A stretch of DNA of 37,520 nt. It comes from a virus (Duplodnaviria; Heunggongvirae; Uroviricota; Caudoviricetes). Location: IMG/VR virus record IMGVR_UViG_2541047896_000017; one strand, written 5' to 3'. The notes beneath the pieces are model-generated. The model had not been told where the DNA came from. It saw only the letters and a list, made by a program, of their open reading frames with translations, and ran no database searches. Positions 12,974 through 37,189 of the stretch are shown piece by piece. Within the stretch, counting starts at the first letter, position 1; the number at the start of each line of letters is the position of its first letter. Both the position numbers and the translations under genes were made by a program.

Positions 12974-13127
12974 TGCTCCCCCTGAGTAATTACAGGAAGA
13001 TTACCCGCGCGCGAAACTGTTCTCCTTAACCCTCTGTTCTGGCCGTTTTCTTACAACAAAAGCCCTTTGTATCAGCCTGTTACGCTTTGCCATCATGACT
13101 GAAGAACCAGTCAGAGGGGCAAAAACT
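12974..13127. promoter_or_regulatory. Divergent late promoter region (P side / O side)
   Basis: Intergenic region between divergently transcribed P and O; motif not confirmed. Confidence 0.4.
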
Positions 13128-19036: not shown

Positions 19037-19614
19037 GCGCAGAACTCATGCGGCTACTGAGCAATATCATCCGCACCGGGATCATCTCTGAAGTTGATGA
19101 GAAGTCCTGGCGCGTGCGCGTTCGCAGCGGCGAACTGGAAACAGGTTGGCTGCGCTGGAACACCACTCGCGCGGGAGCCTTCAATGTGTGGCTGCCGCCA
19201 TCACCAGGCGAACAGGTGGTAATTGCCTGCATTGGCGGCAACCCGGAAACCGCCATGATAATTGGCAGCCTGTGGAGTGATGCCATTCCGGCCCCCGGCA
19301 AAAGCCTGAAAGAAATCGTGGTCAGCGCGCCGGATGGCGCGGTGTTCAGCTACGACGCGGACGCAGGCGCACTGAGCGCCAGCGGCATGAAAACAGCCAC
19401 CCTGCAGGCATCCGTCAGCGTGACACTGGATACGCCCGTCGTGGAATGCACAGACCTTCTGAGAACGGCGACGCTTGACGTCACAAAAGGGGGAAAGATG
19501 AGCGGCAATATCACGCACAGCGGCGGCAATTTCACCTCAAACGGCATCACAGTGCATACGCATAAACACGGTGGCGTTAAAGGTGGCAGCGATTCGACAG
19601 GAGGCCCGCAGTGA
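19033..19614 (+). CDS. V: Baseplate spike/assembly protein, P2 V-like
   Basis: 193 aa; position and size. Confidence 0.75.
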   Translation: MSAELMRLLSNIIRTGIISEVDEKSWRVRVRSGELETGWLRWNTTRAGAFNVWLPPSPGEQVVIACIGGNPETAMIIGSLWSDAIPAPGKSLKEIVVSAPDGAVFSYDADAGALSASGMKTATLQASVSVTLDTPVVECTDLLRTATLDVTKGGKMSGNITHSGGNFTSNGITVHTHKHGGVKGGSDSTGGPQ

Positions 19615-19964: not shown

Positions 19965-20861
19965 ATGCCTGCCGTTGACCTTTCACAGTTACCGGAACCC
20001 GCCATCATCGCGGAGCCTGACTTTGAGGCAATTCTGGCTGACACAAAGGCCATGATGATTGCGTCCTATCCCGCCGAACAGCGTGAAGCCGTTTCCGCCG
20101 CGCTGGAGCTGGAATCGGAACCCCTTAACGTTATCGCTCAAACCATGTCGTTTCGTGAAATGCTGTTACGCCAGCGGGTCAATGAGGGTGCACGCGCCTG
20201 CATGCTAAGTCACAGCGCCGGGACAGACCTGGACAACCTCGCGGGCAATATGAACACAAAGCGCCTGGTTATCACTCCGGCAACGGATACCACCGATGCA
20301 GTGATGGAAAGCGACACCTCGCTGAGACTGCGGGCGCAACGGGCGTATGACGGTCTGAGTGTTGCTGGCCCGTCAGGCGCATACGAGTATTTTGCACGCA
20401 GCGCCAGCGGTCTGGTACGCGACGCGCGAGCCATCAGCCCGTCTCCGGCCAACGTGACGGTTTCCATTCTGTCCACTGAAGGCGACGGCACAGCAACGGA
20501 GGCGTTGCTTAATACCGTTCGCGCCGTTCTGAATGCAGAGGATACCCGCCCGGTGGCCGACCGCCTGACGGTACAGAGCGCCAGAATCGTGACATGGCGG
20601 CTGAATGCAAAACTGTTCTTTTACCCCGGCCCGGAATCCGAACCTATTCTGGCTGCGGCGGAATCGTCGTTCAGGAAGTGGCTGGCTGAGCAGGGGCTTA
20701 TCGGTCAGGACGTGGCGCTGTCAGCCATTGCTGCCGCACTGCATGTGCACGGCGTGCAACGCGTGGAGATAATCGAACCCACACAGAATATGGCCATCAG
20801 CGACATACAGGCGGCGCGCTGTGAGTCATTCACCATCAGCGAAGGTGGGCGTAATGAGTAA
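19965..20861 (+). CDS. J: Baseplate protein, P2 J-like
   Basis: 298 aa; position. Confidence 0.75.
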   Translation: MPAVDLSQLPEPAIIAEPDFEAILADTKAMMIASYPAEQREAVSAALELESEPLNVIAQTMSFREMLLRQRVNEGARACMLSHSAGTDLDNLAGNMNTKRLVITPATDTTDAVMESDTSLRLRAQRAYDGLSVAGPSGAYEYFARSASGLVRDARAISPSPANVTVSILSTEGDGTATEALLNTVRAVLNAEDTRPVADRLTVQSARIVTWRLNAKLFFYPGPESEPILAAAESSFRKWLAEQGLIGQDVALSAIAAALHVHGVQRVEIIEPTQNMAISDIQAARCESFTISEGGRNE

Positions 20862-21391: not shown

Positions 21392-24049
21392 ATGAGCACG
21401 AAATTTAAAACCGTTATCACTACTGCCGGAGCCGCGAAGCTGGCAGCCGCCACTGTCCCCGGCGGGAAAAAAGTAACTCTGTCTGCAATGGCCGTGGGTG
21501 ACGGTAATGGCAAATTGCCGGTGCCGGATGCCGGTCAGACGAAACTGGTGCATGAGGTCTGGCGTCACGCTCTGAATAAAGTCAGCGTGGATAACAAGAA
21601 TAAAAACTATATCGTGGCTGAACTGGTTGTACCGCCAGAAGTGGGCGGCTTCTGGATGCGTGAGCTGGGTCTGTATGACGATGCCGGAACACTGATTGCG
21701 GTCGCTAACATGGCGGAAAGCTATAAACCTGAACTCGCTGAAGGCTCCGGGCGCGCGCAGACCTGCCGCATGGTTATTATTGTCAGCAACGTGGCGTCCG
21801 TTGAGCTGAGTATTGATGCCAGCACAGTGATGGCGACGCAGGATTACGTCGATGACAAAATCGCAGAGCATGAGCAATCCCGCCGCCATCCTGACGCCAC
21901 GCTGACAGAAAAAGGTTTTACTCAGTTAAGTAGCGCAACAAACAGCACCAGTGAAGAGCTGGCGGCAACGCCAAAGGCAGTAAAAGCAGCCTATGACAAT
22001 GCTGAAAAACGTATGCAGAAAGACCAGAACGGTGACGATATTCCAGATAAGGGCGCTTTTCTGGACAATGTTGGCGTTACCAGCCTGACGTTTATGAAAA
22101 ACAATGGCGAAATGCCGCTTGATGCTGACTTGAATACATTTGGTCCCGTTAAGGCTTATCTTGGCATCTGGTCTAAAGCAACATCCACCAACGCAACACT
22201 GGAGAAAAATTTCCCGGAAGATAATGCTGTCGGTGTGCTTGAGGTTTTTGCAGCTGGCAATTTTGCAGGCACGCAACGTTTTATCACGAGAGACGGCAAT
22301 GTATACATGCGTAAACTCGCCAATAAGTGGAATGGCACTGATGGTCCGTGGGGCGTATGGCGTCACACTCAATCAGCTACCCGCCCTTTGAGTACGACTA
22401 TAGACCTGAATACGCTTGGAGCCGCTGAGCATCTTGGTTTATGGCGTAACAGTAGCTCGGCTATAGCTTCATATGAACGCAATTATCCAGAGGAAGGCGG
22501 CTTTGCTCAGGGGACGCTTGAGATCCTCGAAGGCGGGAATTATGGAAGAACGCAACGTTATACCACTCGTCGTGGGAATATGTACGTTCGCTGCCTTGCG
22601 GCAAGCTGGGATGCATCAAATCCGCAGTGGGAACCGTGGTTAAGAGTCGGTCATCAGTCAGAGAGCCGTTATTACGAAGGTGATTTGAATGTTCTAACCG
22701 ACCCCGGTATTTACAGTGTTACAGGAAAGGCGACAAACGGTCCGATGCTGGACGCTGCTGGGGCGACATTGCTTGGGATACTGGAAGTAATCAGGCGTTT
22801 TGATGGTGTATCTGTCTGGCAGCGTTACACAACCACAGGAAAATCAGAAACCACACAGGGGCGCACTTTTGAGCGCGTCTACGCCGGGAGCACATGGACC
22901 GAATGGCGAGAAGTGTATAACTCCTTTTCGTTGCCCCTGAATATGGGGATCGGTGGCGCAGTGGCAAAACTCACCAGCCTGGACTGGCAGACCTACGATT
23001 TTGTGCCGGGCAGTCTGATAACCGTTCGGCTTGATAACATGACCAATATTCCCGACGGTATGGACTGGGGCGTCATTGATGGCAACCTGATAAACATCGC
23101 TGTTGGTCCGAGTGATAATTCCGGTACGGGGCGCTCAATGCATGTATGGCGCAGCACTGTAAGTAAAGCGAATTACCGCTTTTTTATGGTTCGCATTTCA
23201 GGAAATCCGGGAAGCCGCACGATTACGACAAGACGTGTGCCAATTATCGACGAAGCTCAGACATGGGCGGCGAAACAGACATTCAGCGGTGGTCTTTCTG
23301 GCGAACTATCCGGCAATGCTGCTACAGCAACAAAGCTGAAAACGGCAAGGACAATTAACGGCGTAAAATTTGACGGCTCGGCAAATATTGAAGCGTTTCC
23401 GCCAGGTGTTCCGCTGCCGTGGCCATCAGATACTGTGCCGTCTGGTTACGCCCTGATGCAGGGACAGACTTTTGATAAATCTGCATACCCGAAACTTGCA
23501 GTCGCTTATCCGTCAGGCGTGATCCCGGATATGCGTGGCTGGACAATCAAGGGCAAACCCGCCAGTGGTCGGGCCGTATTGTCTCTGGAACAGGACGGCA
23601 TTAAATCGCACACCCACAGTGCCAGCGCATCCAGTACGGATTTGGGTACGAAAACCACATCGTCGTTTGATTACGGTACTAAATCAACGAATAACACAGG
23701 TGCACATACCCACAATGTATCTGGTACTGCAAATAGTGCTGGCGCACATACTCATACCGTTCCATTAAGGAGACCAAACAGTGGCGGTATGAATTTCGAC
23801 TGGCTGGATGGTGCATCAAGTGGCACGGTGGTGGGGAATGGAACTGTGCCTTCTTCTGGCGCACATACCCACTCAGTATCAGGTACCGCTACAAGTGCTG
23901 GGGCACATGCACACACTGTTGGTATTGGCGCTCATACGCACTCTGTTGCGATTGGTTCACATGGACACACCATCACCGTTAACGCTGCTGGTAACGCGGA
24001 AAACACCGTTAAAAACATCGCATTTAATTATATTGTGAGGCTTGCATAA
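21392..24049 (+). CDS. H: Tail fibre protein, P2 H-like, with internally triplicated domain and His-rich C-terminal repeats
   Basis: 885 aa; conserved N-terminus [20 protein letters not shown]...; three DLN(T/V)(F/L)-initiated repeats of about 85-90 aa; C-terminal GAHTH repeats. Confidence 0.85.
23698..23976. repeat. Imperfect direct repeats encoding GAHTH(S/N)VSGTA(T/N)SAGAH motifs
   Basis: Two copies of about 57 bp (near 23698 and 23857) plus shorter GAHTHxV units. Confidence 0.6.
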
Positions 24050-24666
24050 TGGCATTCAGAATGAGTGAACAATCACGTACTGTAAAAATTTATAACCTGC
24101 TGGCCGGAACTAATGAGTTTATTGGTGAAGGTGACGCATATATTCCACCTCATACAGGGCTGCCAGCCAATTCTACAGATATCGCCCCACCGGAAATTCC
24201 TGCTGGCTTTGTGGCAGTTTTTAACAGTGAAAATGAATCGTGGAATATTGTTGAAGACCATCGTGGTAAAACGGTCTATGACGTGGCATCGGGGGACGCG
24301 TTGTTTATTTCTGAACCCGGACCGCTACCAGAGAATGTCACCTGGTTGTCGCCAGCAGGGGAGTATCAGAAGTGGGACGGCGTATCCTGGGTGAAGGATG
24401 AGGAAGCAGAAAAACTGTTTCGGATACGGGAAGCGGAAGAGAAAAAGGCAAGGTTGATCCAGGAAGCAACAGATAACATCGCAATTCTGCAGGATGCAGT
24501 TAATCTTGAAATAGCAACAAACGAGGAAAATTCACAACTGGATTCCTGGAGAAAATACAGAGTATTAGTGAGTAGAATTGACACCAGTACAGCTCCGGAT
24601 ATCGTATGGCCAGAGCTGATGAATCAGGGTTATGTGCGGGAGGACGAGCAGATAACTTCAGACTGA
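24049..24666 (+). CDS. G: Tail fibre assembly chaperone, P2 G-like
   Basis: 205 aa immediately after H, start overlaps H stop. Confidence 0.75.
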
Positions 24667-25193
24667 AATTTAGTGATGAATGTTGAATCATCTGGAATAT
24701 CATGCAATACCAATGCATGAGCACCTATTGTGACATTGTTTCCTATACGCACTTTGCCACCAAGAATGGTGGCATTACAACCAATGGTCACATTATGTCC
24801 TATAACAATATCCATATCATTAAAATCACCACGCAGCCCAATAGTTACCCCTGGTTTTATTGAACAATTTTCACCGATTGTTACTTTGTGACCGATAACA
24901 ACACTGTTGAGATAAGAAACATCAAAGCCTTTCCCTATATTTACAGTTAAAGGGACTGTTACATTATATTTATCAAGAATGAAACGTTCTATTTTCCCCG
25001 CAATCTTCCGACAGTATCCGCCTTTATCAAAAAGGTATTTGGCTATGCGCCACCAAAATAAATAACGAACTCTTCTATGTTTTATTGCGCGAACAATTGC
25101 CTTTCGCCAGGAGAAAGGACGCTCGCTACCGATTACTTCATAGTGAATACAATCTTTAAGTTCATTAATATTCATATCTCTATTATTCAGCAT
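24630..25193 (-). CDS. Hexapeptide-repeat (left-handed beta-helix) acyl/acetyltransferase; moron
   Basis: Hexapeptide repeats [14 protein letters not shown] / [33 protein letters not shown]; region visibly AT-rich; convergent 3' overlap with G. Confidence 0.7.
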
Positions 25194-25363
25194 AAGATAA
25201 TCATGTGACCAATTATTGTAATAATTTTAATGGTATGTTTCTACTGGCTATCCAGCGTGTCTGATGTCCAGTAACAAATCGTTAACACTGGTGCAATCAA
25301 ATGGTGAGTGTTAAGACTGGCCACTTATTACCAGGTATGAGGGTATGAGTGGCCAGCATTAAA

Positions 25364-25858
25364 TCAGAACAGCCCTTTAACTGAACTGGCCGCGCTGTTA
25401 AGGGATGATGTCACTTTATCTTTGAAGCCGGACAGCATATCGCTGAACGATGAGGATTGCAGGCGCTCCCGCAAATCCTCATCACAGCGTTCAAGGGTCA
25501 GTGAAAATTCTATCTTTTTCGCCTTACCGTAGAGATCAAACTCGGAACGGGTCGTATTCGTTTCGGTCAGGACATACATGCCGTAAATCTGCCCGACGCC
25601 ATCAATAAGAGGCCAGGGGCGTCCTGTATACGCCTGCGTGGTCAGCAGCGACAGCGACACTTCGCCACCTGTAATTTCAGGATAAAGCACACCAGAAAGA
25701 ACGATGCGATCATCACCTGCACCGATATACTGCCAGCTTGCTGAACGGTTAACGCGTTCATTTTTCACATGCCGCCAGCTTTTGTTTTGCTGTAACTGCT
25801 GATGCGGCAGCGTGCGCAGCTCAAAAACAAACATGCCGTAGATCATCATCATGGCCAT
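25364..25858 (-). CDS. U: Tail protein, P2 U-like
   Basis: 164 aa; SWRH...DDRIVLSGVLYPEITGG...WPLIDG resembles recalled P2 U. Confidence 0.85.
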   Translation of the reverse strand: MAMMMIYGMFVFELRTLPHQQLQQNKSWRHVKNERVNRSASWQYIGAGDDRIVLSGVLYPEITGGEVSLSLLTTQAYTGRPWPLIDGVGQIYGMYVLTETNTTRSEFDLYGKAKKIEFSLTLERCDEDLRERLQSSSFSDMLSGFKDKVTSSLNSAASSVKGLF

Positions 25859-25864
25859 GACTCC

Positions 25865-28708
25865 TCAATCTTTATCGTAAAAACTGCCACGCCCGGCACG
25901 GGCGCGCCGTTCCATTTCTGCCCTGACCATTTCACCGACCAGTTTCGCCAGTTCGCGGGGATTCTGCGTAACAACGTTATGCAGATGAACATGAATTTCA
26001 CCACCAAATCCGGAGGCAACAGGCTCCCGGTTACGGGAAGTTACAGGAACTGATGCCACTGGAGATCGTATGGCCTCCGCCACCGGGCGGGAGCTGGCCG
26101 CAACAACAGGGACCAGCGCCGGAGGCAGCGGAGCCGGGACCACGGGTGTGATATTAATTGCGGGGGCAGGCTTACTGACCTGCGCAATCTTCCGCTCCTG
26201 CCACTCTCCACGAACAGCAAGTGCGCGGGGCAGGTTCTTAAAGACAATATCGCCGGGGCCAATGCGTTTTTTCGTCTCATCAACCAGCTTACCTGTGTTA
26301 TCAGCAATTTTGCTGAGTCTGCGTAGCGTCCCGGTATTGCTGTCTGTGAGCGGTTTGTTGTCTTTGGGTTTATTACCTCCGGTGCCATTGCCATTTTCCA
26401 CAGGCTTCGGCGGATTGATTTTCGCCAGGTCACCCTGAAGCAAGGCAACCTTGTCCTGAAGAATGGCCGCACGCTGTGCGTCTTCGATTTTCTTGCGCGC
26501 TCTTTCCGCTTCATCCGGAAGGACGCCAAGTTTTTCAAGTATCCACGCCAGCGTATCCAGTAGCATTTTTGCAGGTGTCAGAACAAGCTGTAACGCACCG
26601 CCAAGAACGTTACCGAATATCTCGCCAGCACTGGTACATTTATCCAGCGTTTCCTTGCTGGACTCCATCGGTGACAGCAGCGATTTAAACCAGTTAAACA
26701 CCTGGCTGATCCCGCTTCCGATTGTGTCAAAAACAGGACCAAACCGTTCAAAGGTTTCGCGCAACGGGGTCAGCCTTTCCATAATCCCGCTGAACACCCC
26801 GGCAAAAAATGCCCTGATGGGATCCCAGTATTTCCAGATAAGAACGGCAGCTCCGGCAAGCGCAGCCACGATAAGACCAACCGGACTGAACAGCGCCCCG
26901 ATAGCGCCTCCCAGTAAAGAAACGGAACCCGTCACCATTCCCCACAGCGCAGGCAACACCCTGACGACATTCATTGACCGGGTAAGAATGTCAAAACCAA
27001 GACGCAGGGTGGCCAGCTTCCCGTAAAGCACCCCAATAACCAGCGACAACGAGCCAATCGTTGCAGTCATTGCCAGCAACGCACCGCCTGCTATCAGTAG
27101 CTGGCGCGTCAGTACCGGATGGGCCTGCGCCAGCGAGGTGATTTTTTCAAGCACCCGCGTGAGCCACTGCGTGACAGAACGCAGCGGACCGTCAACCAGA
27201 TCACTGATGCGAATACGAAGACCTTCCCATGCGCTGTCGAGATTTTTCAGGTCCCCATCAAGATTATCGGCCATTACTTTTGCGACGCGATCGGCCTCTC
27301 CCCTTGCCCCCTGCAATTCTCTGGTCAGTTTTTGCAGCTCTCCTGAACCAGCCGCCGCAACAAGCGTCTGCAAACCAACGAACGCCTCTTCTCCGGCGAT
27401 GTCCTTGAAGAAGGAAACCTGGTCCACCTGTCCGTATTTTTGTGTCGCCTTATAGAGATCAAGCAGCACATCCTCCATCGGGCGCATTTTGCCTCTGGCG
27501 TCAGCAACTGACACCCCCAGCTCTTTCAGTGCATCAGCCGCAGCTTTTGGCGGTGATGCAAGGCGGGACAGACTTGCGCGCATGGCCGTACCAGCATCGC
27601 TTCCGCGAAGACCATTATTGGCAAGCATCCCGGCCATGGCTGCCGCTTCTTCAAGACTGATACCAAGTTTTGCGGCAACCGGACCGGTATACTTCATGGT
27701 TTCGCCCAGCGCGCGTAAATCAGTATTGGTCCGGGTGAATGCTGCTGTCAGCGTATCGCCAACACGGTCCATTTGATCGGCTGTCAGGTTGAACTGTGTG
27801 AGGATATTGGAGCCTATATCAGCCGTCTCGCCGAGTTCGACGCCACCTGCCAGCGCCATATTAAGAACACCGGGCAATGCGGCCTGAATGGCCTGCGGAG
27901 TAAAACCAGCCATTGCCAGAAAGCTCTGCCCACTGGCGGCATCACTCGCAGTAAACTGTGTTTCAGAGCCAAGTTTTAACGCCTGCTCACGCAGCGCCTT
28001 AAACTGCGGGCTGTTTTTGTCGATTCGCGTCAGTGCCTGAACGCGGGACATCTCTTTGCCGAACCCGATCGCAGGCTGCAAAAAACGCCCGGCAGCATAG
28101 CCGCCCGCCGTTGCCGCACCAATTGCCAGCGCACCACCTGTTTTCAGTTTTCCCGCCGTTTCCTGCGCGCGCGAATACCGCTCACGCGCCCGTGTTACAC
28201 GCGCAAGCGCCTGCCGTTCGCGTTCAAGCTGGTTGTTGTACTGTTCGGTGCGTCTGATGGCCTGCTGGATGGTGTTATCGCTGCCTGTCAGGGAAATGCC
28301 GTGGCGTTTCAGCTCTCCGCCAAGCTCCCGCATTTTCTGAATTTCCCGTGTGCGCGATTCATTCAGGCGTTCAAGCCGGGTGCTTAACTGCTGCATCAGC
28401 TTTTGTTGTTTTTCGCTGAGCACTGTACCCGTGCGTTGTAACTGATTAAGGGCGTTAAGCTGGCGTCGTGCTTTCAATATGCCAGCATCCGCTTTACTGA
28501 CAGCGTCACGGGCGCGCTCAAATGAACGCGCCTGACGCTCGAGATTTTTGATCGCCCCCTGCGTTCGCTGGATGGAGTCACCAAACTGCCCCATCAGGCG
28601 GCGGGCGTTTTCGGCAGGCCGGGTCAGCCTGTCAACGGCGCTGAAAGCGACCCGGATGTCAAGAGTCTTCATTGTCTGCATTCCCGCTGCGAAGTGCCGC
28701 CCGCTCAC
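25865..28708 (-). CDS. T: Tail tape measure protein, P2 T-like
   Basis: 947 aa, coiled-coil rich N-terminus, hydrophobic/Gly-rich middle; lies between E' and U. Confidence 0.85.
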   Translation of the reverse strand: MSGRHFAAGMQTMKTLDIRVAFSAVDRLTRPAENARRLMGQFGDSIQRTQGAIKNLERQARSFERARDAVSKADAGILKARRQLNALNQLQRTGTVLSEKQQKLMQQLSTRLERLNESRTREIQKMRELGGELKRHGISLTGSDNTIQQAIRRTEQYNNQLERERQALARVTRARERYSRAQETAGKLKTGGALAIGAATAGGYAAGRFLQPAIGFGKEMSRVQALTRIDKNSPQFKALREQALKLGSETQFTASDAASGQSFLAMAGFTPQAIQAALPGVLNMALAGGVELGETADIGSNILTQFNLTADQMDRVGDTLTAAFTRTNTDLRALGETMKYTGPVAAKLGISLEEAAAMAGMLANNGLRGSDAGTAMRASLSRLASPPKAAADALKELGVSVADARGKMRPMEDVLLDLYKATQKYGQVDQVSFFKDIAGEEAFVGLQTLVAAAGSGELQKLTRELQGARGEADRVAKVMADNLDGDLKNLDSAWEGLRIRISDLVDGPLRSVTQWLTRVLEKITSLAQAHPVLTRQLLIAGGALLAMTATIGSLSLVIGVLYGKLATLRLGFDILTRSMNVVRVLPALWGMVTGSVSLLGGAIGALFSPVGLIVAALAGAAVLIWKYWDPIRAFFAGVFSGIMERLTPLRETFERFGPVFDTIGSGISQVFNWFKSLLSPMESSKETLDKCTSAGEIFGNVLGGALQLVLTPAKMLLDTLAWILEKLGVLPDEAERARKKIEDAQRAAILQDKVALLQGDLAKINPPKPVENGNGTGGNKPKDNKPLTDSNTGTLRRLSKIADNTGKLVDETKKRIGPGDIVFKNLPRALAVRGEWQERKIAQVSKPAPAINITPVVPAPLPPALVPVVAASSRPVAEAIRSPVASVPVTSRNREPVASGFGGEIHVHLHNVVTQNPRELAKLVGEMVRAEMERRARAGRGSFYDKD

Positions 28709-29188
28709 GCCAGCTAACCACTTCGCCGGGCGTCATCATGAAGATTTCGGCGGGCGACCAGTTAAAAATGGCGGCAATATCCGCCACCAGATCTTCGATG
28801 TGCTCAAAGCACACCAGGGTGATTACGCTGCCGTCTCCTGCACGCTCTTCGCGCCAGAGTCTGGCTCGCTCATAAAATTTACAGCCACAGCGCACAACTG
28901 AATAAAATCGCGTGACGACATTTTTTTAATCATCACTTCATCCAGTCGTGGCGAGGTCACGCGAGGCAACAGCGTGAACATGGTATCCGCTTTCAGATTC
29001 AGCACATCAGACAGCGACAGACCACGCAGGGATCCAGCCTGCTCAATAGCCCCGGTGATCTCCACATACGTGATTTTTTCGCCACCACGCTCAATTGGTC
29101 GGGTCAGTTTTACGCCACGCTCGCTGGTTTCTTTCACAGTGTCAGCAACGACCGTATTTTCGGTATCGATGTTTTTCGTCACTTTCAT
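28659..29188 (-). CDS. E': Tail assembly chaperone E+E' fusion, predicted product of -1 frameshift
   Basis: The 28659..28895 ORF is in the -1 frame relative to E; that frame opens immediately after an A7 run (plus-strand T7 at 28920-28926) inside E. Confidence 0.6.
28823..29188 (-). CDS. E: Tail assembly chaperone, P2 E-like
   Basis: ..LRGLSLSDVLN...LLPRVTSP.. resembles recalled P2 E; position between FII and T. True start may lie downstream of 29188. Confidence 0.7.
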   Translation of the reverse strand: MKVTKNIDTENTVVADTVKETSERGVKLTRPIERGGEKITYVEITGAIEQAGSLRGLSLSDVLNLKADTMFTLLPRVTSPRLDEVMIKKMSSRDFIQLCAVAVNFMSEPDSGAKSVQETAA

Positions 29189-29242
29189 CAGGAAACTCCT
29201 TTCAGTCAGAGGCGACGCACTGCGCCGCCTGCATATTACTTA

Positions 29243-29755
29243 TCAGCCAAGCCCGAGCGCGGAACGGATGCGATCGGGCACAATGTCCTTGCCGTCCTTC
29301 CGGTAAATGAAGTTCAGCAGGTCAATCTCCCACAACGGGCGATCGTTAACACTCAGCTTGTAGTAGGTGTTTTTAATGGCGTAAGTGTGTGATGTGGCTT
29401 CGCCCTGTTTGGCTTCCCCCATATCAATTTCCGTCACACGTCCGCGCATTTCGACTTCATACAGGTCGCTTTCATCATCGGTGTAGTATTCACCCGCAAA
29501 ACGCAGTAGCGTGCCGTCAATCGTGCCGCCATACTTCAGGAACAGCTCACGAACTGCGCCCCCCATGACAAAGCTCGCATCAAGCGCGGAGTCGTCCAGA
29601 CCGAGATCAATACTTACCGCCCCCATCATGCCACCACCCCGGTAGCTGTCGGTTTTGCGCGTCAGTTTAGGCAGGGTGACGGACGTCACCTTACCCACTT
29701 CGTTTTCACCATCCACAAACAGCGTAAAAAAGCGAAGATGTTTTGGTACAGCCAT
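29243..29755 (-). CDS. FII: Tail tube protein, P2 FII-like
   Basis: 170 aa; MAVPKHLRFFTLFVDGE.. matches recalled P2 FII. Confidence 0.85.
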   Translation of the reverse strand: MAVPKHLRFFTLFVDGENEVGKVTSVTLPKLTRKTDSYRGGGMMGAVSIDLGLDDSALDASFVMGGAVRELFLKYGGTIDGTLLRFAGEYYTDDESDLYEVEMRGRVTEIDMGEAKQGEATSHTYAIKNTYYKLSVNDRPLWEIDLLNFIYRKDGKDIVPDRIRSALGLG

Positions 29756-30939
29756 CAGGCACCTCCCAGCACCGCAAATGCGGGACCAAAGAATTCATCA
29801 GTAAACGACTGGTAAAGCTCCATGTCTTCCAGCGGAGGAACGGGCGTATATTTGTAGCGAATACGCACACGCCCCTGACGTAAATTCGTGGTGCTGTTAT
29901 CCACGATGTCATACCAGCACTCCGCGCCAATCAGTTTCCCGGCAGTAACCAGTGAATCCAGTTTTGCCCTGATGGCACTGATAACATCCTTCACGTTCGC
30001 AGGCGTCAGTGGACTGTCGATGGTTTCAAACTGCGCTTCCGCAATTGAATCAGCCAGCACCTGTGCAGTTCGGGTATACACCTCAAAGATGTAGGCGTTC
30101 GTTTCCGGTGTGCGGTTGCCCCAGAAGCGGAACCCGTTGCGACGAATAATGGTCGTGATTTCTTTGTTGTTGAGGCTGTTGGCATCGCTGTCTTCGGCCT
30201 GCAACGACCAGAACACATGCCTGGACATCCCCAGCACATTTTTAACCGGAACATTGGACAGTGATTTGTGCCATCCCTGCTCATGGTCAATGTACGCACG
30301 AAGGCCGCACGCATAGGCAGGCGCGGGGAACGTTTCGTTTTTGCCACTTTTCGGGTTGTAGGCGATGAAGTCCGGCCATAAGAGCATCACCTCACGTTCA
30401 TTGAATTTCTGGCGGTAGGTAATCGCCTCAGCCATCGTGTTACAGCCGTGACATGAGGCATACACAAACGCGCGCAGTTTACCCGCAATCACGCACAGGG
30501 ATTTTGTTACCGCCTCCGTGTCCAGCTCCGGCGCGGCCAGAATACGCGGACGGTATCCGATGCTTTCATCCTGCTCTGCAACAAGCAGCGCATACATCCC
30601 CGTATAGCTGCCGTCAGATTCAGAACCACCGATAACCAGTTGATCCTGCGTTTTTCCGTCTTCTTCTTTGTGTTCAGCCACGCGAACGACGATCACCTTT
30701 GTGCTCACCTGGTCTGCGATGGCCTTAAGCGCACGATAAAGCGTCCCCGTTGTTCCGCATTTTCCCAGCACGTCATTGACGCGGGTCAGCAGTGTGGGCT
30801 TGTTCAGCGGGAACAGCTCCGCGTCCGCATCATCCGCCATTGCCACGATACCGATAACACTGGAATCAACATCATTAATCGCTGTTACCAGGTCGGTACT
30901 TTCCGTAACACGGGCACCATGAAAACGAGTTTCACTCAT
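29755..30939 (-). CDS. FI: Contractile tail sheath protein, P2 FI-like
   Basis: 394 aa; DADAELFPLNKP, KLRAFVYAS, DHEQGWHKSLSNV, LIRRNGFRFWGNRT, YTRTAQVLAD, YTPVPPLE align with recalled P2 FI. Confidence 0.9.
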   Translation of the reverse strand: MSETRFHGARVTESTDLVTAINDVDSSVIGIVAMADDADAELFPLNKPTLLTRVNDVLGKCGTTGTLYRALKAIADQVSTKVIVVRVAEHKEEDGKTQDQLVIGGSESDGSYTGMYALLVAEQDESIGYRPRILAAPELDTEAVTKSLCVIAGKLRAFVYASCHGCNTMAEAITYRQKFNEREVMLLWPDFIAYNPKSGKNETFPAPAYACGLRAYIDHEQGWHKSLSNVPVKNVLGMSRHVFWSLQAEDSDANSLNNKEITTIIRRNGFRFWGNRTPETNAYIFEVYTRTAQVLADSIAEAQFETIDSPLTPANVKDVISAIRAKLDSLVTAGKLIGAECWYDIVDNSTTNLRQGRVRIRYKYTPVPPLEDMELYQSFTDEFFGPAFAVLGGA

Positions 30940-31096
30940 AGCTTCAGCCCCTTGTATCCGTTAAATGATTCGGCAACAATCATCACCCACCACGCGCGTA
31001 ATCTCACCCCTGCGCCGTTCTCCCGACCCGGCGACAACAAAAAGCAGTAACCCCCTCTGCACGCACATGCGACCATGCCGCACAGGGAGGGAACAG
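30940..31096. promoter_or_regulatory. Divergent intergenic region upstream of FI (minus) and D (plus); presumed late promoter(s)
   Basis: Position only; no motif confirmed. Confidence 0.35.
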
Positions 31097-32206
31097 ATGA
31101 CCGACACCACCATGCAATTGCTCAGTCAGGGCACAGACCCCGTGAAAATGCCAGATTTTGATATTCTCGCGGAGGGGAAAACGCTGTCAGGCGTGGCAGA
31201 GCGCCTGATGAGCCTGTCACTGACCGACAACCGGGGATTTGAGGCGGACCAGCTCACCATCACGCTGGATGATGCGGATGGTCAGTTGCAGCTACCGCCA
31301 CGGGGCGCGCGCCTGACGGTTCTCATTGGCTGGAAAGGAGAACCGCTGACAGAAAAAGGCACTTACATTGTTGATGAAATTGCTCATGAAGGACCGCCCG
31401 ACAGACTGACCATTTCAGCCAGAAGCGCAGATTTTCGGGATGAATTTAACGTCAAGCGCGAAGTATCCTGGCATGATGTGACCGTTGAACGCGTGGTGTC
31501 TGCAATTGCTCACCGATACGGCCTGAAACCGCAAATCAGCGAAATGCTGATGGATATTGAAATCGACCACGCTGACCAGACCGAAGAAAGCGACATGTCC
31601 TTCCTTACACGCATGGCGGAAATGCTGGGCGCAATCACCACGGTAAAAAGCGGTAATCTGTTATTCATTATGCCCGGTGGTGGCGTGAACGCACAGGGCC
31701 AGCCGTTGCCATCGTTCGCCATCACACGCAGCAGCGGCGATCGCCATCAGTTCCGCATTGCTGACCGCGAGGCGTATACGGGGGTACGCGCTTACTGGCT
31801 TGATCTTAATTACGGGAAAAAGAAAAAAGTCAGCGTGAAACGCCGTAAACCGCCAAAACCGAAAAAAGAGAAAAGCAGCAGCCGTGAAGGTGATTATATG
31901 GAAGGCGCGGAAGGCAATGTGTTTGTGTTACGCAAGACTTATCAGAACGAGCAGGCAGCAAGACGCGCAGCGGCGGCAAAGTGGCAACAACTACAACGCG
32001 GAGCCGCATCATTCTCCATCACGCTGGCACGTGGACGAGCAGAACTCTACCCCGAAATGCATGGCACGGTAACAGGCTTTAAAAGCGAGATTGATAATCA
32101 GGACTGGATTATTGCGAAAGCCGAGCACACCATTGATAACAGCGGCTTTACCACGCAGCTTGAGCTTGAGGCAAAAATCCCGGAATGGATAGCGGAAACA
32201 GAGTGA
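31097..32206 (+). CDS. D: Late control/tail protein D
   Basis: ATG 31097 with RBS gggaggg; about 369 aa (P2 D about 387); position before ogr. Confidence 0.8.
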   Translation: MTDTTMQLLSQGTDPVKMPDFDILAEGKTLSGVAERLMSLSLTDNRGFEADQLTITLDDADGQLQLPPRGARLTVLIGWKGEPLTEKGTYIVDEIAHEGPPDRLTISARSADFRDEFNVKREVSWHDVTVERVVSAIAHRYGLKPQISEMLMDIEIDHADQTEESDMSFLTRMAEMLGAITTVKSGNLLFIMPGGGVNAQGQPLPSFAITRSSGDRHQFRIADREAYTGVRAYWLDLNYGKKKKVSVKRRKPPKPKKEKSSSREGDYMEGAEGNVFVLRKTYQNEQAARRAAAAKWQQLQRGAASFSITLARGRAELYPEMHGTVTGFKSEIDNQDWIIAKAEHTIDNSGFTTQLELEAKIPEWIAETE

Positions 32207-32251
32207 GCAACTGGGATGCATTAGTTCAGACACGGGCTAGCATGCTTACGT

Positions 32252-32294
32252 ACGGCACAGAAGCAAACCTAATTGGAGTTTTGCTCTGTGCCTT
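32252..32294 (+). terminator. Putative terminator after D
   Basis: Imperfect hairpin GGCACAGAaGCAAA...TTTTGCTCTGTGCC followed by TTTC. Confidence 0.45.
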
Positions 32295-32416
32295 TCACCG
32301 ATTGGCCAAGTGTAACCCGCCTTACACCAAGACGAATTATAATCGGCAACAATGTCAGTAGTTACTATAAATGTTTATAAACAAAGATTTATTTCTCCGA
32401 AGCTACAAGCACTACA

Positions 32417-33010
32417 CTAAATCTCAGCAATCTTTTTTTTACTGTGCTGTTCTATTATCAACTCTGCTTCCGCTTGGTATTCATGAGCTAACTCTCGAAG
32501 AATTCGGGCAAATCGATGAAAGCCTAGAAGTTCCATTGCATCAGACTTAGTGTGATATTGTTGGGCCAACTCCAATTCCGGTTTACCTTCTGGGTCAACA
32601 ATGTAGACACCACGCGAATTTATTATCGCATTCTTATAACCAGTACGCACTTTATCAAGTTCACGTCTATTCAAAAACTCGGCCAGTTCTGGAAGTATCC
32701 AATGCTCGTCATTTGCAGGGCTAAAAATTAATATGCTTCCAATCCTATGATAAGCAAAATCTAAATGGCCTGACTTTTCGCATTCTGTTTGGACAAAATC
32801 AAACCAGTTATTAAACGCATTGACATCAAACTTGCCTTCAGCATCAACACCCGGAATCTTTTTCCAATCATCAAGTAAATAGAGTGAGTTTTTGGCAATA
32901 TTTATTTCACTTTCAGATAGTTCTTTACTTGCTTTTTGAAATTCTGATCGATACGCATATTGAATGACTTCACAAAAAAAACTGGGTTCACTTGCAAGTT
33001 TTTTCTCTAA
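32417..33010 (-). pseudogene. C-terminal fragment (about 197 codons) of the IS5-disrupted large cargo gene
   Basis: Frame open from the IS5 junction to stop at 32417 with no plausible start codon; in frame with the 34206..36408 part once IS5 and one CTAA copy are removed. Confidence 0.75.
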
Positions 33011-34205
<1,195 letters not shown>

Positions 34206-36408
34206 CTAATACTTGAGGATGCAACGAATCATTAGCCCCCCTGTTAATTACAGGTAGGTATGCCCATTCAATCTTTACTAAGTCGTCATCTGAAACAGTG
34301 TTATCATTTTGAATATAATTCACAAGTTCATTAAATGAGTGAATATCAAACCGCTCAATATTTTCTGTGGTTCTAATTGATTGCAATAGAGCAAGCACAA
34401 CCTTACTGCTATCAACTGAATTATCGATATGCAAAATTTTAGATAAACAATCTATTGCCATCAAGGGACGGTCTACTTTAATCAAGCAGTCTATAGCAAA
34501 ATAAATTTCTTCCGTTGAATCACAGCTGTATGCATTAACAAGAGTATTTTTCCAATACTCGAAAGGAAAATCATCAAATGAAGCGTTTAATGCATCCCAT
34601 GTTTCTTTTTTAAACGGTAACAAAAGAAAAAAAGCAATCTTTTCTTGAGCACTCCAGTCATTAATAACTGTCAACACCCATGATTTTCCTTCTCTGTAGT
34701 TTTTAGCCTGTACATAACCAGAAGCAAGAGAATTTTCCTTTTTAATATCACTAACAATAAGTTTTTTCAGTATATCTAAAGGAATTTCTAGATCTTCTGC
34801 GACCAGGCTACTACCAACAAACTCAGGCCTTTCAATAGATAGAGAGAATTCTAAGACTCCATCAATACCATTAATAGCATATATTTCGCATATTGATTGC
34901 CCTCGTTCTTTTGTCAACCTTTCTTCTTGGTCCCGCCAGTTTCCATTTTCATCAAATAGGAAGTAATTGTTTTGTGCAAAAAGTCGCTTGCTATAAAGCA
35001 TAGGATCTTCGGGCTTCAAGACTGTAGAAACATCTTTGATTTTTTCATTTTGTTCTGGTTGCATTGCCCAATAAGCACCTGAGAATCTTTTGTTTTTGTT
35101 ATAAACTTCTAAACATTTTTCCCACACCGCTAACTTCAATTCAGCACTATCTGTTTTTTTAGAAAAATCATACAATAGTTTAATTGCATCATCGAATTTA
35201 AATGGCGCTAAACTACCAATATTTTCAACTAAATCAACAAGTCTTAATGATGATTTACTTGCCAATTCAATTGTTAATTGAGTGTATATTTCAATCTGAG
35301 TACGGCACTCATCACCCGATGGCCTTTTATTAAAACCGTTAGGAATAAAGTTTCTAAAAGTTGGAATATGTGTGCCAGATGTTACTTGCGTGTTGTTGGG
35401 TAGCAACTGAACTAAAACACGCCATGCTGTATCGGGCCACTCCCTTGCCAATGCGTTGAAAGCAGCAATACGTCTATCTATATCAGCTGTAGTATGAGGA
35501 AGCCATGGTAACAATATGTTGATTATCGAGTTAAGTGGCCTGTTAGCCCAATTGCCACCAGGATCATGGCTATCCAGCTCCCCTAATATTACTAAAGAGC
35601 GAGATAAATAGTTAGGCGCCCAAGCTAATCCTTCAATAGCCCATAGCAGTCCTGTCATATAATTCCGACCTGAAATTCCACCGATACCTTCCTGTGCAAA
35701 AAGTGAATCAAATGGCTTGTCTTGGTGAGATGCAGCATTTTCCACTTCGTCGATAAAACAGTCAGGAGCACTTTCCGCAAGCATAACTTGAATATCTTGC
35801 GTACTAGCCCATAATTGCCAGCTAGAAGCCGAAAAAACCTCTTTAACCACACTTGAGGCGCAATATTGCCCTTTATATTTTGAGCAATTAGTAAGTAACT
35901 CTTGCTTTGTTGCAACTAATGCCAACCCTTCGGATAGTCCTTTCCTTATTAATCGGCTGTGTGGTAAAACCTTCCCATAAATTACTGCTGCATAACGCTC
36001 TTCAGGTGCCAGTTCAAATTGTGGGTCGATAGTTTTAAAAACGGATACAACAGTCGTCCGAAACAAATCCAAATGATCATCGAATAATCTTGACGATACC
36101 GTTTGAAATGTTTGTATTCTATCTTTAAAACTCCAAGAACCTCTCTCATGAATCAAAGGACTATCTTGCATCCCTTCAATTATTCTTAATTTTCGAATCC
36201 AACTGTCATATGACTCACCAATAAGGCTTGTAATTATATCAATATCACCATTATTTTTTTCATCCCAGCAACCGACTAAAACAGCAATCGCTAACTCAGT
36301 CGCATAATCAACATTATCACTATTGTATACAATTAAGTTACCAGCAACATTATGGCCTGGTCCGGTATGATTTTGACTAATTGAACTGCAGCTATGAATG
36401 TTATCCAT
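34206..36408 (-). pseudogene. N-terminal part (about 735 codons) of large AT-rich cargo gene, truncated by IS5
   Basis: ORF-track 743 aa ORF whose last 7 codons plus stop come from IS5; start ATG 36408 (RBS gagg) or GTG 36414. Confidence 0.75.
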
Positions 36409-36413
36409 AGACA

Positions 36414-36776
36414 CTACCTCGTAATTTTATTTCCACCAATATTATCACCAGTGCCACTATGGTTTTGAATAATGACAGTTGCTGCATGAGGTTTTATAGA
36501 CGAGAGTATTTTTTGAATTTCACTACTATCCAATAGTTTTCTTTCAATTGCTATTTCACTCATTTCATCGTTCAAAGACAGTTTTTCAAGCTCTTTAGCT
36601 AAAGCAGGGGCTACAGCCTCATCAACAACCCAATTTTTTAACTTTTCTTTTATTGAAGTTGCAGTAATCGAAACATGATGTTTAAGCATGTCATAAACTA
36701 TGCCAGAAAGTATCGCCGAAGATAAAAAATCCATAACAATTTCCTTTAACGTAAGATATTTACTATCCAGATACAT
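36414..36776 (-). CDS. Small protein (120 aa) tightly coupled upstream of the large cargo gene; unknown function
   Basis: Stop TAG overlaps/abuts the large gene start; AT-rich; C-terminal QNHSGTGDNIGGN motif. Confidence 0.6.
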   Translation of the reverse strand: MYLDSKYLTLKEIVMDFLSSAILSGIVYDMLKHHVSITATSIKEKLKNWVVDEAVAPALAKELEKLSLNDEMSEIAIERKLLDSSEIQKILSSIKPHAATVIIQNHSGTGDNIGGNKITR

Positions 36777-36928
36777 TTTAAATCGAAGAAAGAGCTTTTA
36801 CCACGTATATTTATTGGCTAATAACATGATAACTCGACTATCTGCTATTCGCTTAAAACGAAGTGTTAGTTGGAATTATAGCCAGCACGACCTAGAATAA
36901 CATCAGCACTGCGTTAAGGGAGGTCGCT

Positions 36929-37189
36929 ATGTTCCGTTGCCCGCTTTGTGGCGCATCTGCCCGCATCCGTACCAGTCGTCCGGAAAATGATTCAAATACC
37001 GTGCGGCAAAAGTATTACCAGTGTAACAACCTGGAATGCGGTGTATGCTTCTCAACACTGGAAGCTTTCCATAAATTCACATCGAAACACGCCTCCGGCG
37101 TTCACTCTTCAGAAGGTATCCCGTGGCATGAGCTGCCAGCTTCACACAGGGGAAACAATCAGATGAGTTTGCCTTTACCTCAGGATTAA
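36929..37189 (+). CDS. ogr: Late gene transcriptional activator, Ogr/Delta zinc-finger family
   Basis: MFRCPLCGASARIRTSR...YYQCNNLEC resembles recalled P2 Ogr (CPLC...C..C zinc finger); RBS aagggagg. Confidence 0.85.
   Translation: MFRCPLCGASARIRTSRPENDSNTVRQKYYQCNNLECGVCFSTLEAFHKFTSKHASGVHSSEGIPWHELPASHRGNNQMSLPLPQD

What the first reader, a model, noticed from the sequence alone, without database searches (positions are those of the whole stretch)
25194..31096. Tail sheath-tube-tape measure block is inverted relative to canonical P2
In P2, FI-FII-E-T-U-D are co-directional with H-G. Here FI, FII, E/E', T and U are on the minus strand while H-G upstream and D-ogr downstream are on the plus strand, so D is divergent from FI instead of following U. 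Inverting 25364-30939 would restore the P2 order. This could be a real inversion (which separates D from the FI promoter) or a misassembly; I found no obvious inverted repeats at the boundaries by eye.
Basis: partly seen in the sequence, partly recalled or inferred. Interest (0 to 1): 0.45.

Follow-up and report, generated by a model that had tools for sequence, protein, structure and literature searches.

The report
Lineage-typical inverted tail block, P88-like prophage
The tail sheath-to-tape-measure genes do run backwards compared with phage P2, but this is the normal, ancient gene order of a very common group of P2 relatives (P88-like phages), and gene D appears to stay under late control by sharing a two-way promoter with the sheath gene.

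Summary
U, T, E/E', FII and FI (25364-30939) lie on the minus strand, between H-G (+) and D (+).

The arrangement is neither a misassembly nor a recent rearrangement. The window is a P88-like (Xuanwuvirus) prophage, and every close or moderately distant relative examined has the same order:
- P88, phiSM, 500465-2 and SEN4/SEN5.
- 48 loci from at least 22 enterobacterial genera.
- The intact FI/D junction in about 1109 of 5426 complete E. coli genomes.

In trees of D and FI, the inverted genomes form one clade. P2-type genomes and two outgroups (Burkholderia AP3, Mannheimia 587AP1) keep the P2 order. This points to one old inversion that was then inherited. No inverted repeats flank the block.

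D has not lost late control. The 157-bp FI/D spacer carries a central T(G/C)T-N12-ACA dyad, the P2 Ogr-type activator site. A -10-like hexamer lies exactly 34 nt away on each side. This spacing holds in 42 of 44 (FI side) and 39 of 44 (D side) distinct relatives. The geometry matches P2's divergent pP/pO promoter. The promoter reading is inferred and has not been tested experimentally.

The gene order is ordinary and already present in public genomes, so interest is low.

The parts
21392..24049 (+). H tail fibre gene, the last long gene of the rightward late operon upstream of the block
   Evidence: Pfam Phage_tail_fib, Phage_fiber_2 and Collar. The N-terminal 204 aa are 86% identical to P2 H.
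24049..24666 (+). G tail-fibre assembly gene, the end of the rightward operon; it converges on the inverted block
   Evidence: Pfam Caudo_TAP, E 1.6e-39.
24630..25193 (-). Hexapeptide-repeat O-acetyltransferase cargo gene in the variable G/U gap. It is not part of the conserved block.
   Evidence: Pfam Hexapep. NCBIfam serine/sugar O-acetyltransferase-like hits, all below their cutoffs. GC about 40%. P88 carries an invertase and an alternative fibre segment here, and SEN5 carries nothing.
25311..25362 (-). Stem-loop immediately after the U stop codon. It may act as a transcript-end or stabilising hairpin and has no U-run. It lies in the non-conserved spacer 25194-25363.
   Evidence: Inverted repeat I17. 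The fold of 25194-25370 (-) has z = -2.7. Homology to P88 starts at 25359.
25364..25858 (-). U tail gene, the last gene of the inverted operon
   Evidence: Pfam Phage_P2_GpU, E 3.5e-38. 99% aa identity to P88 and 46% to P2.
25865..28708 (-). T tape measure gene
   Evidence: Pfam PhageMin_Tail, E 1.6e-56. 94.5% aa identity to P88.
28659..28880 (-). E' extension in the -1 frame. The putative slippery heptamer A_AAT_TTT lies at 28880-28874.
   Evidence: Read from the minus-strand sequence. P88 annotates the equivalent 51-aa piece. The frameshift site is inferred.
28823..29188 (-). E tail assembly chaperone gene
   Evidence: Pfam Phage_TAC_7, weak and below its cutoff. 83% aa identity to P88 E and 35% to P2 E.
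29243..29755 (-). FII tail tube gene
   Evidence: Pfam Phage_tube, E 1.3e-47.
29755..30939 (-). FI tail sheath gene, the first gene of the inverted operon
   Evidence: Pfam Phage_sheath_1, Gp18_domIII_N and Phage_sheath_1C. 97% aa identity to P88 and 45% to P2.
30940..31096 (.). 157-bp FI/D spacer, the proposed bidirectional late promoter region
   Evidence: Alignment of 46 distinct relatives shows a conserved dyad, two -10 boxes and a CGCGCG block. The spacer is also 157 bp in P88 and SEN5.
30979..30984 (-). Predicted -10 hexamer GATGAT of the leftward FI promoter. The inferred transcription start is near 30972.
   Evidence: It lies 34 nt from the dyad. 42 of 44 distinct relatives have an A2/T6 hexamer at this spacing, against at most 8 at any other spacing.
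31019..31036 (.). Dyad TCT-N12-ACA (TCTCCCGACCCGGCGACA), centre 31027.5. This is the proposed Ogr-family activator site serving both directions.
   Evidence: It aligns with perfect TGT-N12-ACA sites in more distant relatives. The P2 late-promoter consensus TGT-N12-ACA is stated in PMC3931495.
31071..31076 (+). Predicted -10 hexamer GACCAT of the rightward D promoter. The inferred transcription start is near 31083, and a Shine-Dalgarno GGGAGGG lies at 31085-31091.
   Evidence: It lies 34 nt from the dyad. 39 of 44 relatives have an A2/T6 hexamer at this spacing.
31097..32206 (+). D tail/baseplate hub gene, divergent from FI
   Evidence: Pfam Phage_GPD. 97% aa identity to P88 D, which is annotated from the equivalent ATG.
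36929..37189 (+). ogr-family zinc-finger late activator, the presumed ligand of the dyad sites
   Evidence: Cys pattern found by regex. Pfam Ogr_Delta, E 5e-14. 98% aa identity to the unannotated P88 ORF directly after D.
13038..13055 (.). Second dyad of the same type (TCT-N12-ACA, followed by ACAAAAGC) in the divergent P/O spacer. It is the internal comparator for the FI/D site.
   Evidence: -10-like TAATCT lies 34 nt to the left and CATCAT 35 nt to the right.

Best explanation
The window holds a P88-like (Xuanwuvirus-type) P2-family prophage. In this whole lineage the FI-FII-E/E'-T-U operon points the opposite way from P2. The cause is a single ancient inversion in the common ancestor of a large enterobacterial clade of Peduoviridae (Xuanwuvirus, Senquatrovirus and unnamed relatives). 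It is not an event in this genome and not an assembly error.

The inversion placed D back-to-back with FI, 157 bp apart. Late expression of D appears to be maintained because that spacer works as a bidirectional, activator-dependent late promoter. One dyad-symmetric Ogr-type site (T[G/C]T-N12-ACA, centre 31027.5) lies about 55 bp upstream of two divergent start sites. A -10 box sits 34 nt from the dyad on each side. This is the same design as P2's divergent pP/pO pair.

Shown: the gene order, its distribution across relatives, the monophyly of the inverted genomes, and the conserved sequence architecture. Inferred: the transcription start sites, Ogr binding and activator dependence.
For: **Gene order in known relatives**
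- Layout of the window.
- One uninterrupted megablast alignment covers U through D in P88, 500465-2, 520873, PhiR44_2, P884B11 and Citrobacter phiSM.
- The P88 and SEN5 annotations show the same order.
- P88 and phiSM are active phages (PMC6456863).

**E. coli genomes**
- 194 complete genomes are collinear across both junctions.
- 1109 of 5426 carry the FI/D junction at 80% coverage or more.

**Other genera and phylogeny**
- In a scan of one genome per species, all 48 loci with D at least 61% identical are inverted. All loci with D at 54% or less have the P2 order.
- The outgroups AP3 and Mannheimia 587AP1 have the P2 order.
- In NJ trees of D and FI, the 49 inverted tips are monophyletic with no intruders.

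**Promoter architecture**
- The dyad and flanking boxes are conserved.
- An A2/T6 hexamer lies at exactly 34 nt in 42 of 44 (FI side) and 39 of 44 (D side) relatives, against at most 8 at any other spacing from 20 to 49.
- SEN5 has perfect TGT-N12-ACA sites at P/O, S/V and FI/D, and its D-side promoter is 43/71 identical to its pV.
- The P2 record places one activator site (3057-3087) between transcription starts at 3016 and 3127. By my reading of the TGT-N12-CCA dyad at 3063-3080, each start lies 55.5 nt from the site centre.
- In this window only the P/O and FI/D spacers have a dyad with -10 boxes on both sides.
- An Ogr_Delta zinc-finger gene is present.
Against: - There are no transcript or binding data, so the promoter model rests on sequence conservation among related, non-independent genomes.
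- The window's own dyad is TCT-N12-ACA, not the canonical TGT-N12-ACA.
- The bare pattern TST-N12-ACAAC occurs about as often in the window as chance predicts (3 observed against 2.3 expected). Only its position and flanking boxes are informative.
- The predicted D leader is short, about 14 nt.
- No separate V-type late promoter was found in the window, so the late-promoter inventory is incomplete.
- I found no paper that describes this inversion or this promoter.
Confidence: 0.8

Rival explanations
1. The inversion is an assembly artefact in this sequence.
For: None found.
Against: The same two junctions occur in 194 independently finished E. coli genomes. The FI/D junction occurs in about 1109 genomes. 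It is also present in several isolated phage genomes and in 48 loci from other genera.
Confidence: 0.01
2. The block is a recent or programmed invertible segment. It would flip either by a serine invertase, like the tail-fibre segments of Mu, P1 and P88, or by recombination between inverted repeats.
For: P88 carries a DNA invertase and an alternative fibre segment directly next to U, so invertases do occur at this position in the lineage.
Against: - The window has no invertase. The ORF at 24630-25193 is an acetyltransferase.
- There is no significant inverted repeat between the two boundaries.
- Every relative examined has the same orientation, and none of 30 evenly sampled E. coli hits breaks at the spacer.
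- The inverted state maps to one deep clade.
Confidence: 0.01
3. The gene order is ancestral to the clade as described, but D is not driven by a shared Ogr-dependent bidirectional promoter. It would instead use an unrelated promoter (constitutive or early), and the symmetry of the spacer would reflect only the FI promoter plus chance or other constraints.
For: - No experimental data exist.
- The D-side -10 (GACCAT) is weak.
- The sigma-70 consensus scan finds nothing in the spacer.
- The window's dyad half-site is TCT, not TGT.
Against: - The D-side hexamer keeps A2/T6 at exactly 34 nt from the dyad in 39 of 44 diverged relatives, mirroring the FI side.
- The SEN5 D-side sequence closely resembles its own pV late promoter.
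- Activator-dependent P2 late promoters are expected to fail a -35/-10 consensus scan.
- P2 pP/pO provides a characterised precedent with the same geometry.
Confidence: 0.15
4. The order arose not by in-situ inversion but by modular replacement. A foreign FI-U cassette would have been inserted in reverse orientation into an ancestral genome.
For: P2-family genomes are mosaic. Here the H C-terminus and G are lambda-like, and cargo differs at both ends of the block.
Against: The FI and D trees give the same bipartition with similar stem lengths (0.17 and 0.20). FI is as far from P2 FI (45%) as D is from P2 D (49%). Nothing therefore suggests that the block has a separate history from its neighbours.
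Confidence: 0.05

Closest known systems
Escherichia phage P88 and other Xuanwuvirus (Peduoviridae), including Citrobacter phiSM, 500465-2, 520873 and PhiR44_2
   Same: The gene order is identical: H-G (+), variable gap, U-T-E'-E-FII-FI (-), a 157-bp spacer, D (+), ogr (+). Structural proteins are 94-100% identical in amino acids. blastn finds five collinear same-strand blocks covering 24.9 kb at 95% identity.
   Different: - The G/U gap holds an acetyltransferase here, where P88 has a DNA invertase and an alternative fibre segment.
- 4.7 kb of cargo (an IS5-family element and a GapS6a-containing pair) is inserted between D and ogr.
- The integrase is only 37% identical.
- The H C-terminus and G differ.
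Salmonella phages SEN4/SEN5 (Senquatrovirus)
   Same: They share the inverted FI-U block, a 157-bp FI/D spacer and a central dyad with -10 boxes 34 nt away on each side.
   Different: D is about 63% and FI about 55% identical in amino acids. The dyad is a perfect TGT-N12-ACA, and a separate S/V late promoter is present.
Bacteriophage P2 (Peduovirus) F operon and the pP/pO divergent late promoters
   Same: The gene set and within-block order are the same (FI, FII, E/E', T, U). An Ogr-family activator is present, and the late-promoter dyad lies about 55 bp upstream of the starts. In P2 pP/pO, one site serves two divergent promoters.
   Different: In P2 the F operon is co-directional with V-G and includes D, with the U stop overlapping the D start. 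P2 pF shows no -10 on its far side by my reading of the sequence. Here the block is reversed and D has its own promoter arm. Proteins are only 33-49% identical.
Stenotrophomonas phage Smp131, a P2-like phage with rearranged late operons
   Same: It shows that late-operon membership can be reshuffled in P2 relatives while TGT-N12-ACA promoters are retained. Its PP' and PO' share one dyad (PMC3931495).
   Different: It is a different rearrangement in a distant host group, not the FI-U inversion.

Membership tests
Xuanwuvirus / P88-like Peduoviridae | High nucleotide similarity to P88 across the genome (the ICTV genus convention is about 70%; this threshold is from my own knowledge) | tested here: inconclusive
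   24,933 bp of the window align to P88 at 94.9% identity in five collinear blocks. That is roughly 66% of P88's length times identity, which is borderline because of cargo and fibre swaps. Structural proteins are 94-100% identical.
Xuanwuvirus / P88-like Peduoviridae | Gene order H-G | U-T-E-FII-FI (reverse) | D-ogr | tested here: met
P2-family (Peduoviridae) tail module | Presence of FI sheath, FII tube, E/E' chaperone pair, T tape measure, U and D | tested here: met
   Pfam hits for all of them, with E weak. tblastn to P2 gives 33-49% identity. The E' frame and slippery site were read and are inferred.
P2-family (Peduoviridae) tail module | Canonical P2 operon structure, with FI-FII-E-T-U-D co-transcribed and co-directional with V-G | tested here: not met
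   The block is reversed and D is divergent. This departure is shared by a whole clade.
Ogr/Delta/B-dependent late promoters | TGT-N12-ACA dyad centred about 55 bp upstream of the transcription start | tested here: inconclusive
   The window has TCT-N12-ACA at 31019-31036, and relatives have perfect TGT-N12-ACA in the aligned position. The distance to the start is inferred from the -10 boxes, not measured.
Ogr/Delta/B-dependent late promoters | A -10 element without a consensus -35 | tested here: met
   A2/T6 hexamers lie 34 nt from the dyad on both sides. The sigma-70 -35/-10 scan finds no promoter in the spacer.
Ogr/Delta/B-dependent late promoters | Cognate C4 zinc-finger activator encoded by the phage | tested here: met
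   36929-37189 matches Pfam Ogr_Delta at E 5e-14 and is 36% identical to P2 Ogr.
Ogr/Delta/B-dependent late promoters | Transcription requires the activator and the RNA polymerase alpha subunit contact | not testable with these tools
   This needs reporter or in vitro transcription assays.
Site-specific invertible segments (Gin/Cin/Hin type) | Inverted crossover sites at both ends | tested here: not met
   The best boundary match is at chance level.
Site-specific invertible segments (Gin/Cin/Hin type) | Adjacent serine invertase gene | tested here: not met
   There is no recombinase between G and D in the window. P88 has one, but it is associated with its fibre segment.
Site-specific invertible segments (Gin/Cin/Hin type) | Both orientations found among close relatives | tested here: not met
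   Only one orientation appears in 49 inverted-clade genomes and in the sampled E. coli hits.

The most novel reading that the evidence does not exclude
The FI/D spacer may be a second Ogr-dependent bidirectional late promoter. It would have been created or co-opted when an ancestral inversion detached D from the F operon. Because the activator site is dyad-symmetric, a single site could at once serve a new divergent promoter arm, which would have made the inversion tolerable and then fixed it. If so, the spacer's strictly conserved geometry (-10, 34 nt, 18-nt dyad, 34 nt, -10) marks a deep clade of Peduoviridae spanning at least 22 host genera. As far as I could find, this has not been described.
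Probability: 0.7. Interest if true: 0.3.

Novelty: already known. Interest (0 to 1): 0.15.

Why it matters
- **Annotation and prophage quality control.** This gene order should not be flagged as a rearrangement or misassembly. It is the normal layout of a prophage family found in about one in five complete E. coli genomes.
- **A cheap clade marker.** The orientation of FI relative to D is a single synteny character that splits enterobacterial P2-like phages into two deep groups.
- **Regulatory evolution.** If confirmed, the symmetric FI/D spacer would be a clear example of a dyad-symmetric activator site allowing an operon to be split by inversion without loss of co-regulation. This is a modest point, but one 5'-end mapping experiment could test it.

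Tried and rejected
- **Invertase in the G/U gap.** From its size and position I first suspected that the 187-aa ORF at 24630-25193 was a DNA invertase that could explain the inversion. Pfam and NCBIfam show it is a hexapeptide acetyltransferase.
- **Boundary inverted repeats.** The general repeat finder and a dedicated boundary-against-boundary comparison with shuffles found nothing above chance.
- **Perfect TGT-N12-ACA in the window.** Four hits were found, none in a late spacer. The relevant sites appeared only after aligning relatives, because this lineage uses TCT in one half-site.
- **Pattern count.** The count of TST-N12-ACAAC across the window is not above chance. I therefore rely on position, flanking boxes and conservation rather than on the count.
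- **Sigma-70 and terminator scan.** It gave nothing useful in the FI/D spacer and no convincing intrinsic terminator after U. The hairpin after U lacks a U-run.
- **Literature.** Searches for a description of the inversion (P88 paper, Peduoviridae diversity paper, Myoviridae classification, Xuanwuvirus mentions) found none. One search failed on a term that was too short.
- **Separate V- or R-type late promoter.** No dyad with a -10 at the right spacing was found outside P/O and FI/D, so how R-S-V...G is transcribed remains open. Read-through from pO is possible.
- **First tree script.** It timed out and was rerun with a faster distance calculation.
Full report
**1. The observation**

| Gene | Coordinates | Strand | Evidence |
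|---|---|---|---|
| H | 21392-24049 | + | tail-collar fibre domains |
| G | 24049-24666 | + | Caudo_TAP |
| U | 25364-25858 | - | Phage_P2_GpU |
| T | 25865-28708 | - | tape measure |
| E | 28823-29188 | - | tail assembly chaperone |
| FII | 29243-29755 | - | Phage_tube |
| FI | 29755-30939 | - | sheath domains |
| D | 31097-32206 | + | Phage_GPD |

- The D reading frame is open from 30965. P88's annotated start and a GGGAGGG Shine-Dalgarno sequence favour 31097.
- The reference P2 record has FI-FII-E-E'-T-U-D-ogr co-directional with V-W-J-I-H-G.
- blastn of the window against P2 aligns I/H and D forward but FI in reverse.
- The E' extension and a plausible slippery heptamer A_AAT_TTT (28880-28874, minus strand) can be read from the sequence.
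- ogr is not adjacent to D. An Ogr_Delta zinc-finger gene lies at 36929-37189, after a 4.7-kb insertion.

**2. What the prophage is**

- Structural proteins are 94-100% identical to Escherichia phage P88 (genus Xuanwuvirus, Peduoviridae). They are only 26-54% identical to P2, apart from I and the H N-terminus.
- The window aligns to P88 in five collinear, same-strand blocks covering 24.9 kb at 95% identity.
- P88's annotation shows the same layout: H, G, a variable segment, then U, T, E', E, FII and FI on the reverse strand, a 157-bp gap, then D forward.
- An unannotated ogr directly follows D in P88.

**3. How widespread the arrangement is**

- *Phage records.* Megablast against phage records gives one uninterrupted alignment from the U stop through D. 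The hits are P88, 500465-2, 520873, PhiR44_2, P884B11 and Citrobacter phiSM.
- *Functional phages.* P88 and phiSM are functional temperate phages (PMC6456863).
- *Both junctions in E. coli.* Of 5426 complete E. coli genomes, 194 are collinear with 23500-32700 in one piece, covering both junctions and the acetyltransferase.
- *FI/D junction in E. coli.* 1109 genomes carry the FI/D junction (30440-31600) at 80% coverage or more and 95-99% identity. None of 30 evenly sampled hits breaks at the spacer.
- *Other genera.* A scan of one genome per bacterial species with a D-protein profile returned 80 loci. tblastn with the window and P2 proteins classified them.
  - All 48 loci with D at least 61% identical to the window have J+ I+ ... 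U- T- E- FII- FI- | D+ ogr+.
  - They come from Salmonella, Edwardsiella, Serratia, Erwinia, Pantoea, Enterobacter, Kosakonia, Klebsiella, Citrobacter, Pectobacterium, Brenneria, Symbiopectobacterium, Xenorhabdus, Photorhabdus, Providencia, Morganella, Hafnia, Yersinia, Rouxiella, Dryocola, Izhakiella and Trabulsiella.
  - All loci with D at 54% or less have the P2 order.
- *A second genus.* Salmonella phage SEN5 (Senquatrovirus) is inverted too, again with a 157-bp FI/D gap.
- *Share of phage records.* About 49 of 530 D-containing records fall in the identity range that corresponds to the inverted type.

**4. Polarity and number of events**

- Two outgroup Peduoviridae, Burkholderia AP3 (Aptresvirus) and Mannheimia 587AP1 (Baylorvirus), have the P2 order. 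The P2 order is therefore ancestral.
- In neighbour-joining trees of D and of FI rooted on the Mannheimia phage, the 49 inverted genomes form a single clade with no P2-type intruders. The stem branches are 0.20 and 0.17.
- The simplest reading is one ancient inversion that was then inherited vertically.
- Nothing marks the breakpoints today. The best inverted match between the two boundary zones is 13 nt with a mismatch, equalled or beaten in 8 of 100 shuffles.
- Homology among Xuanwuvirus genomes stops five bases past the U stop codon. The G/U gap is therefore a variable cargo site:
  - an acetyltransferase in the window;
  - an invertase plus alternative fibre segment in P88;
  - nothing in SEN5.

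**5. How D is expressed (inferred)**

*The P2 precedent.*
- P2 late promoters carry a TGT-N12-ACA activator site and depend on Ogr (PMC3931495).
- The P2 record places a single activator site between the divergent P and O transcription starts at 3016 and 3127. Each start lies 55.5 nt from the dyad centre by my reading.

*Conserved elements in the FI/D spacer.* Aligning the spacer from 46 distinct relatives shows four conserved elements in otherwise diverged sequence:
- a central T(G/C)T-N12-ACA dyad;
- one -10-like box on each side of it;
- a CGCGCG block on the D side.

*The window's own spacer.*
- The dyad is TCTCCCGACCCGGCGACA (31019-31036).
- GATGAT, read on the minus strand, lies at 30984-30979.
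- GACCAT lies at 31071-31076.
- Each box is exactly 34 nt from the dyad.
- This geometry predicts starts near 30972 (-) and 31083 (+), each about 55.5 nt from the dyad centre.

*Conservation of the spacing.* Across 44 distinct loci, a hexamer with A at position 2 and T at position 6 lies at spacing 34 in 42 loci on the FI side and 39 on the D side. At every other spacing from 20 to 49 the count is 8 or fewer.

*Supporting comparisons.*
- SEN5 has perfect TGT-N12-ACA sites in its P/O, S/V and FI/D spacers.
- The SEN5 D-side arm is 43/71 identical to its own pV promoter, against 23-28/71 for comparisons with the FI-side arm.
- In the window, the only other dyad with -10 boxes on both sides is in the P/O spacer, TCT-N12-ACA followed by ACAAAAGC at 13038.

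The late genes therefore appear to be organised as two divergent pairs, Q-P | O...G and U...FI | D, each around one activator site.

*Caveats.*
- The genomes compared are related, not independent.
- The window's half-site is TCT rather than TGT.
- The bare pattern count is at chance level.
- No transcript data were available.

**6. Rivals**

- *Misassembly* is excluded by the number of independent finished genomes that share both junctions.
- *A programmed or recent inversion* is excluded on three grounds: there are no boundary repeats, there is no invertase in the window, and a single orientation is seen throughout the clade.
- *An Ogr-independent D promoter* remains possible (about 0.15), because the promoter model is untested.
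- *Cassette replacement* instead of in-situ inversion cannot be fully excluded. However, the FI and D trees agree, and their distances to P2 are similar.

**7. Comparison with what is known, and novelty**

- The gene order matches that of P88 and other Xuanwuvirus and Senquatrovirus genomes already in public databases. As a genomic feature it is already known, even though I found no paper that comments on it.
- The promoter architecture is a variant of the characterised P2 pP/pO arrangement, applied to FI/D.
- The most novel reading not excluded is that this bidirectional promoter is what made the ancestral inversion viable, and that its fixed geometry marks a deep clade.

**8. Verdict**

It is a lineage-typical gene order in a very common prophage family. 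It is neither a rearrangement specific to this genome nor an artefact. The main practical value is for annotation and as a synteny marker. The promoter inference is a small hypothesis that is easy to test.

Noticed in passing
window 32213-36889: This is a 4.7-kb insertion between D and ogr relative to P88. P88 positions 34439 and 34437 abut the two ends of the insertion.
- An IS5-family transposase lies at 33157-34137 (-).
- A low-GC (35-39%) gene pair follows.
- The first gene of the pair is a 120-aa protein at 36414-36776 (-). It matches NCBIfam antiphage GapS6a (135.5 bits against a cutoff of 90) and Pfam HetE-N.
- The second is a 743-aa protein at 34183-36414 (-) with no Pfam, NCBIfam, PADLOC or PDB sequence hit.

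The pair is probably a GAPS6-type defence cargo in a P2-family hotspot.
   Followed up: partly
window 24630-25193 (-): A hexapeptide-repeat O-acetyltransferase cargo gene (GC about 40%) lies in the G/U gap and overlaps the 3' end of G by 37 nt. It could be a lysogenic-conversion (surface polysaccharide acetylation) gene. The same slot holds a DNA invertase and an alternative tail-fibre segment in P88, and is empty in SEN5.
   Followed up: partly
window 23500-24450: The C-terminal part of H and most of G match lambda-type side tail fibre (stf) and tfa genes of lambdoid phages at 87-90% nucleotide identity. The H N-terminus is P2-like (86% aa). The tail fibre is therefore a mosaic. Histidine-rich GAHTH repeats lie at 23699-23920.
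   Followed up: no
window 7756-8715 (+): A ParM-type actin-like segregation protein (Pfam StbA_N and ParM_N) is encoded in the early region, as in P88. This is unusual for an integrating P2-family phage.
   Followed up: no
L004 (NZ_JBQPOM010000071.1, 'Vagococcus sp. WN89Y'): A contig labelled as a Gram-positive Vagococcus carries a prophage 93-99% identical in its tail proteins to this E. coli prophage. Contamination or mislabelling of that assembly is likely.
   Followed up: no
L083 (SEN5) 9263-9333 and 20790-20860: In SEN5 the D-side arm of the FI/D promoter is 61% identical (43/71) to the pV late promoter, including a GCGTTGT motif and a GCGCGCGCG run. This hints that the D promoter arm may derive from, or be constrained like, pV.
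   Followed up: partly
window 17804-19040: S and V overlap (19033-19036), and neither the lysis/R gap nor any other site has a dyad with a -10 at the right spacing. Unlike P2 and SEN5, this phage may lack a separate V promoter, and R through G may be transcribed from pO.
   Followed up: partly
E. coli O157:H7 genomes (e.g. NC_011353.1 2517340-2518264): O157:H7 strains carry a copy of the FI/D junction that ends at query base 925, within D. This suggests a truncated remnant of this prophage type.
   Followed up: no
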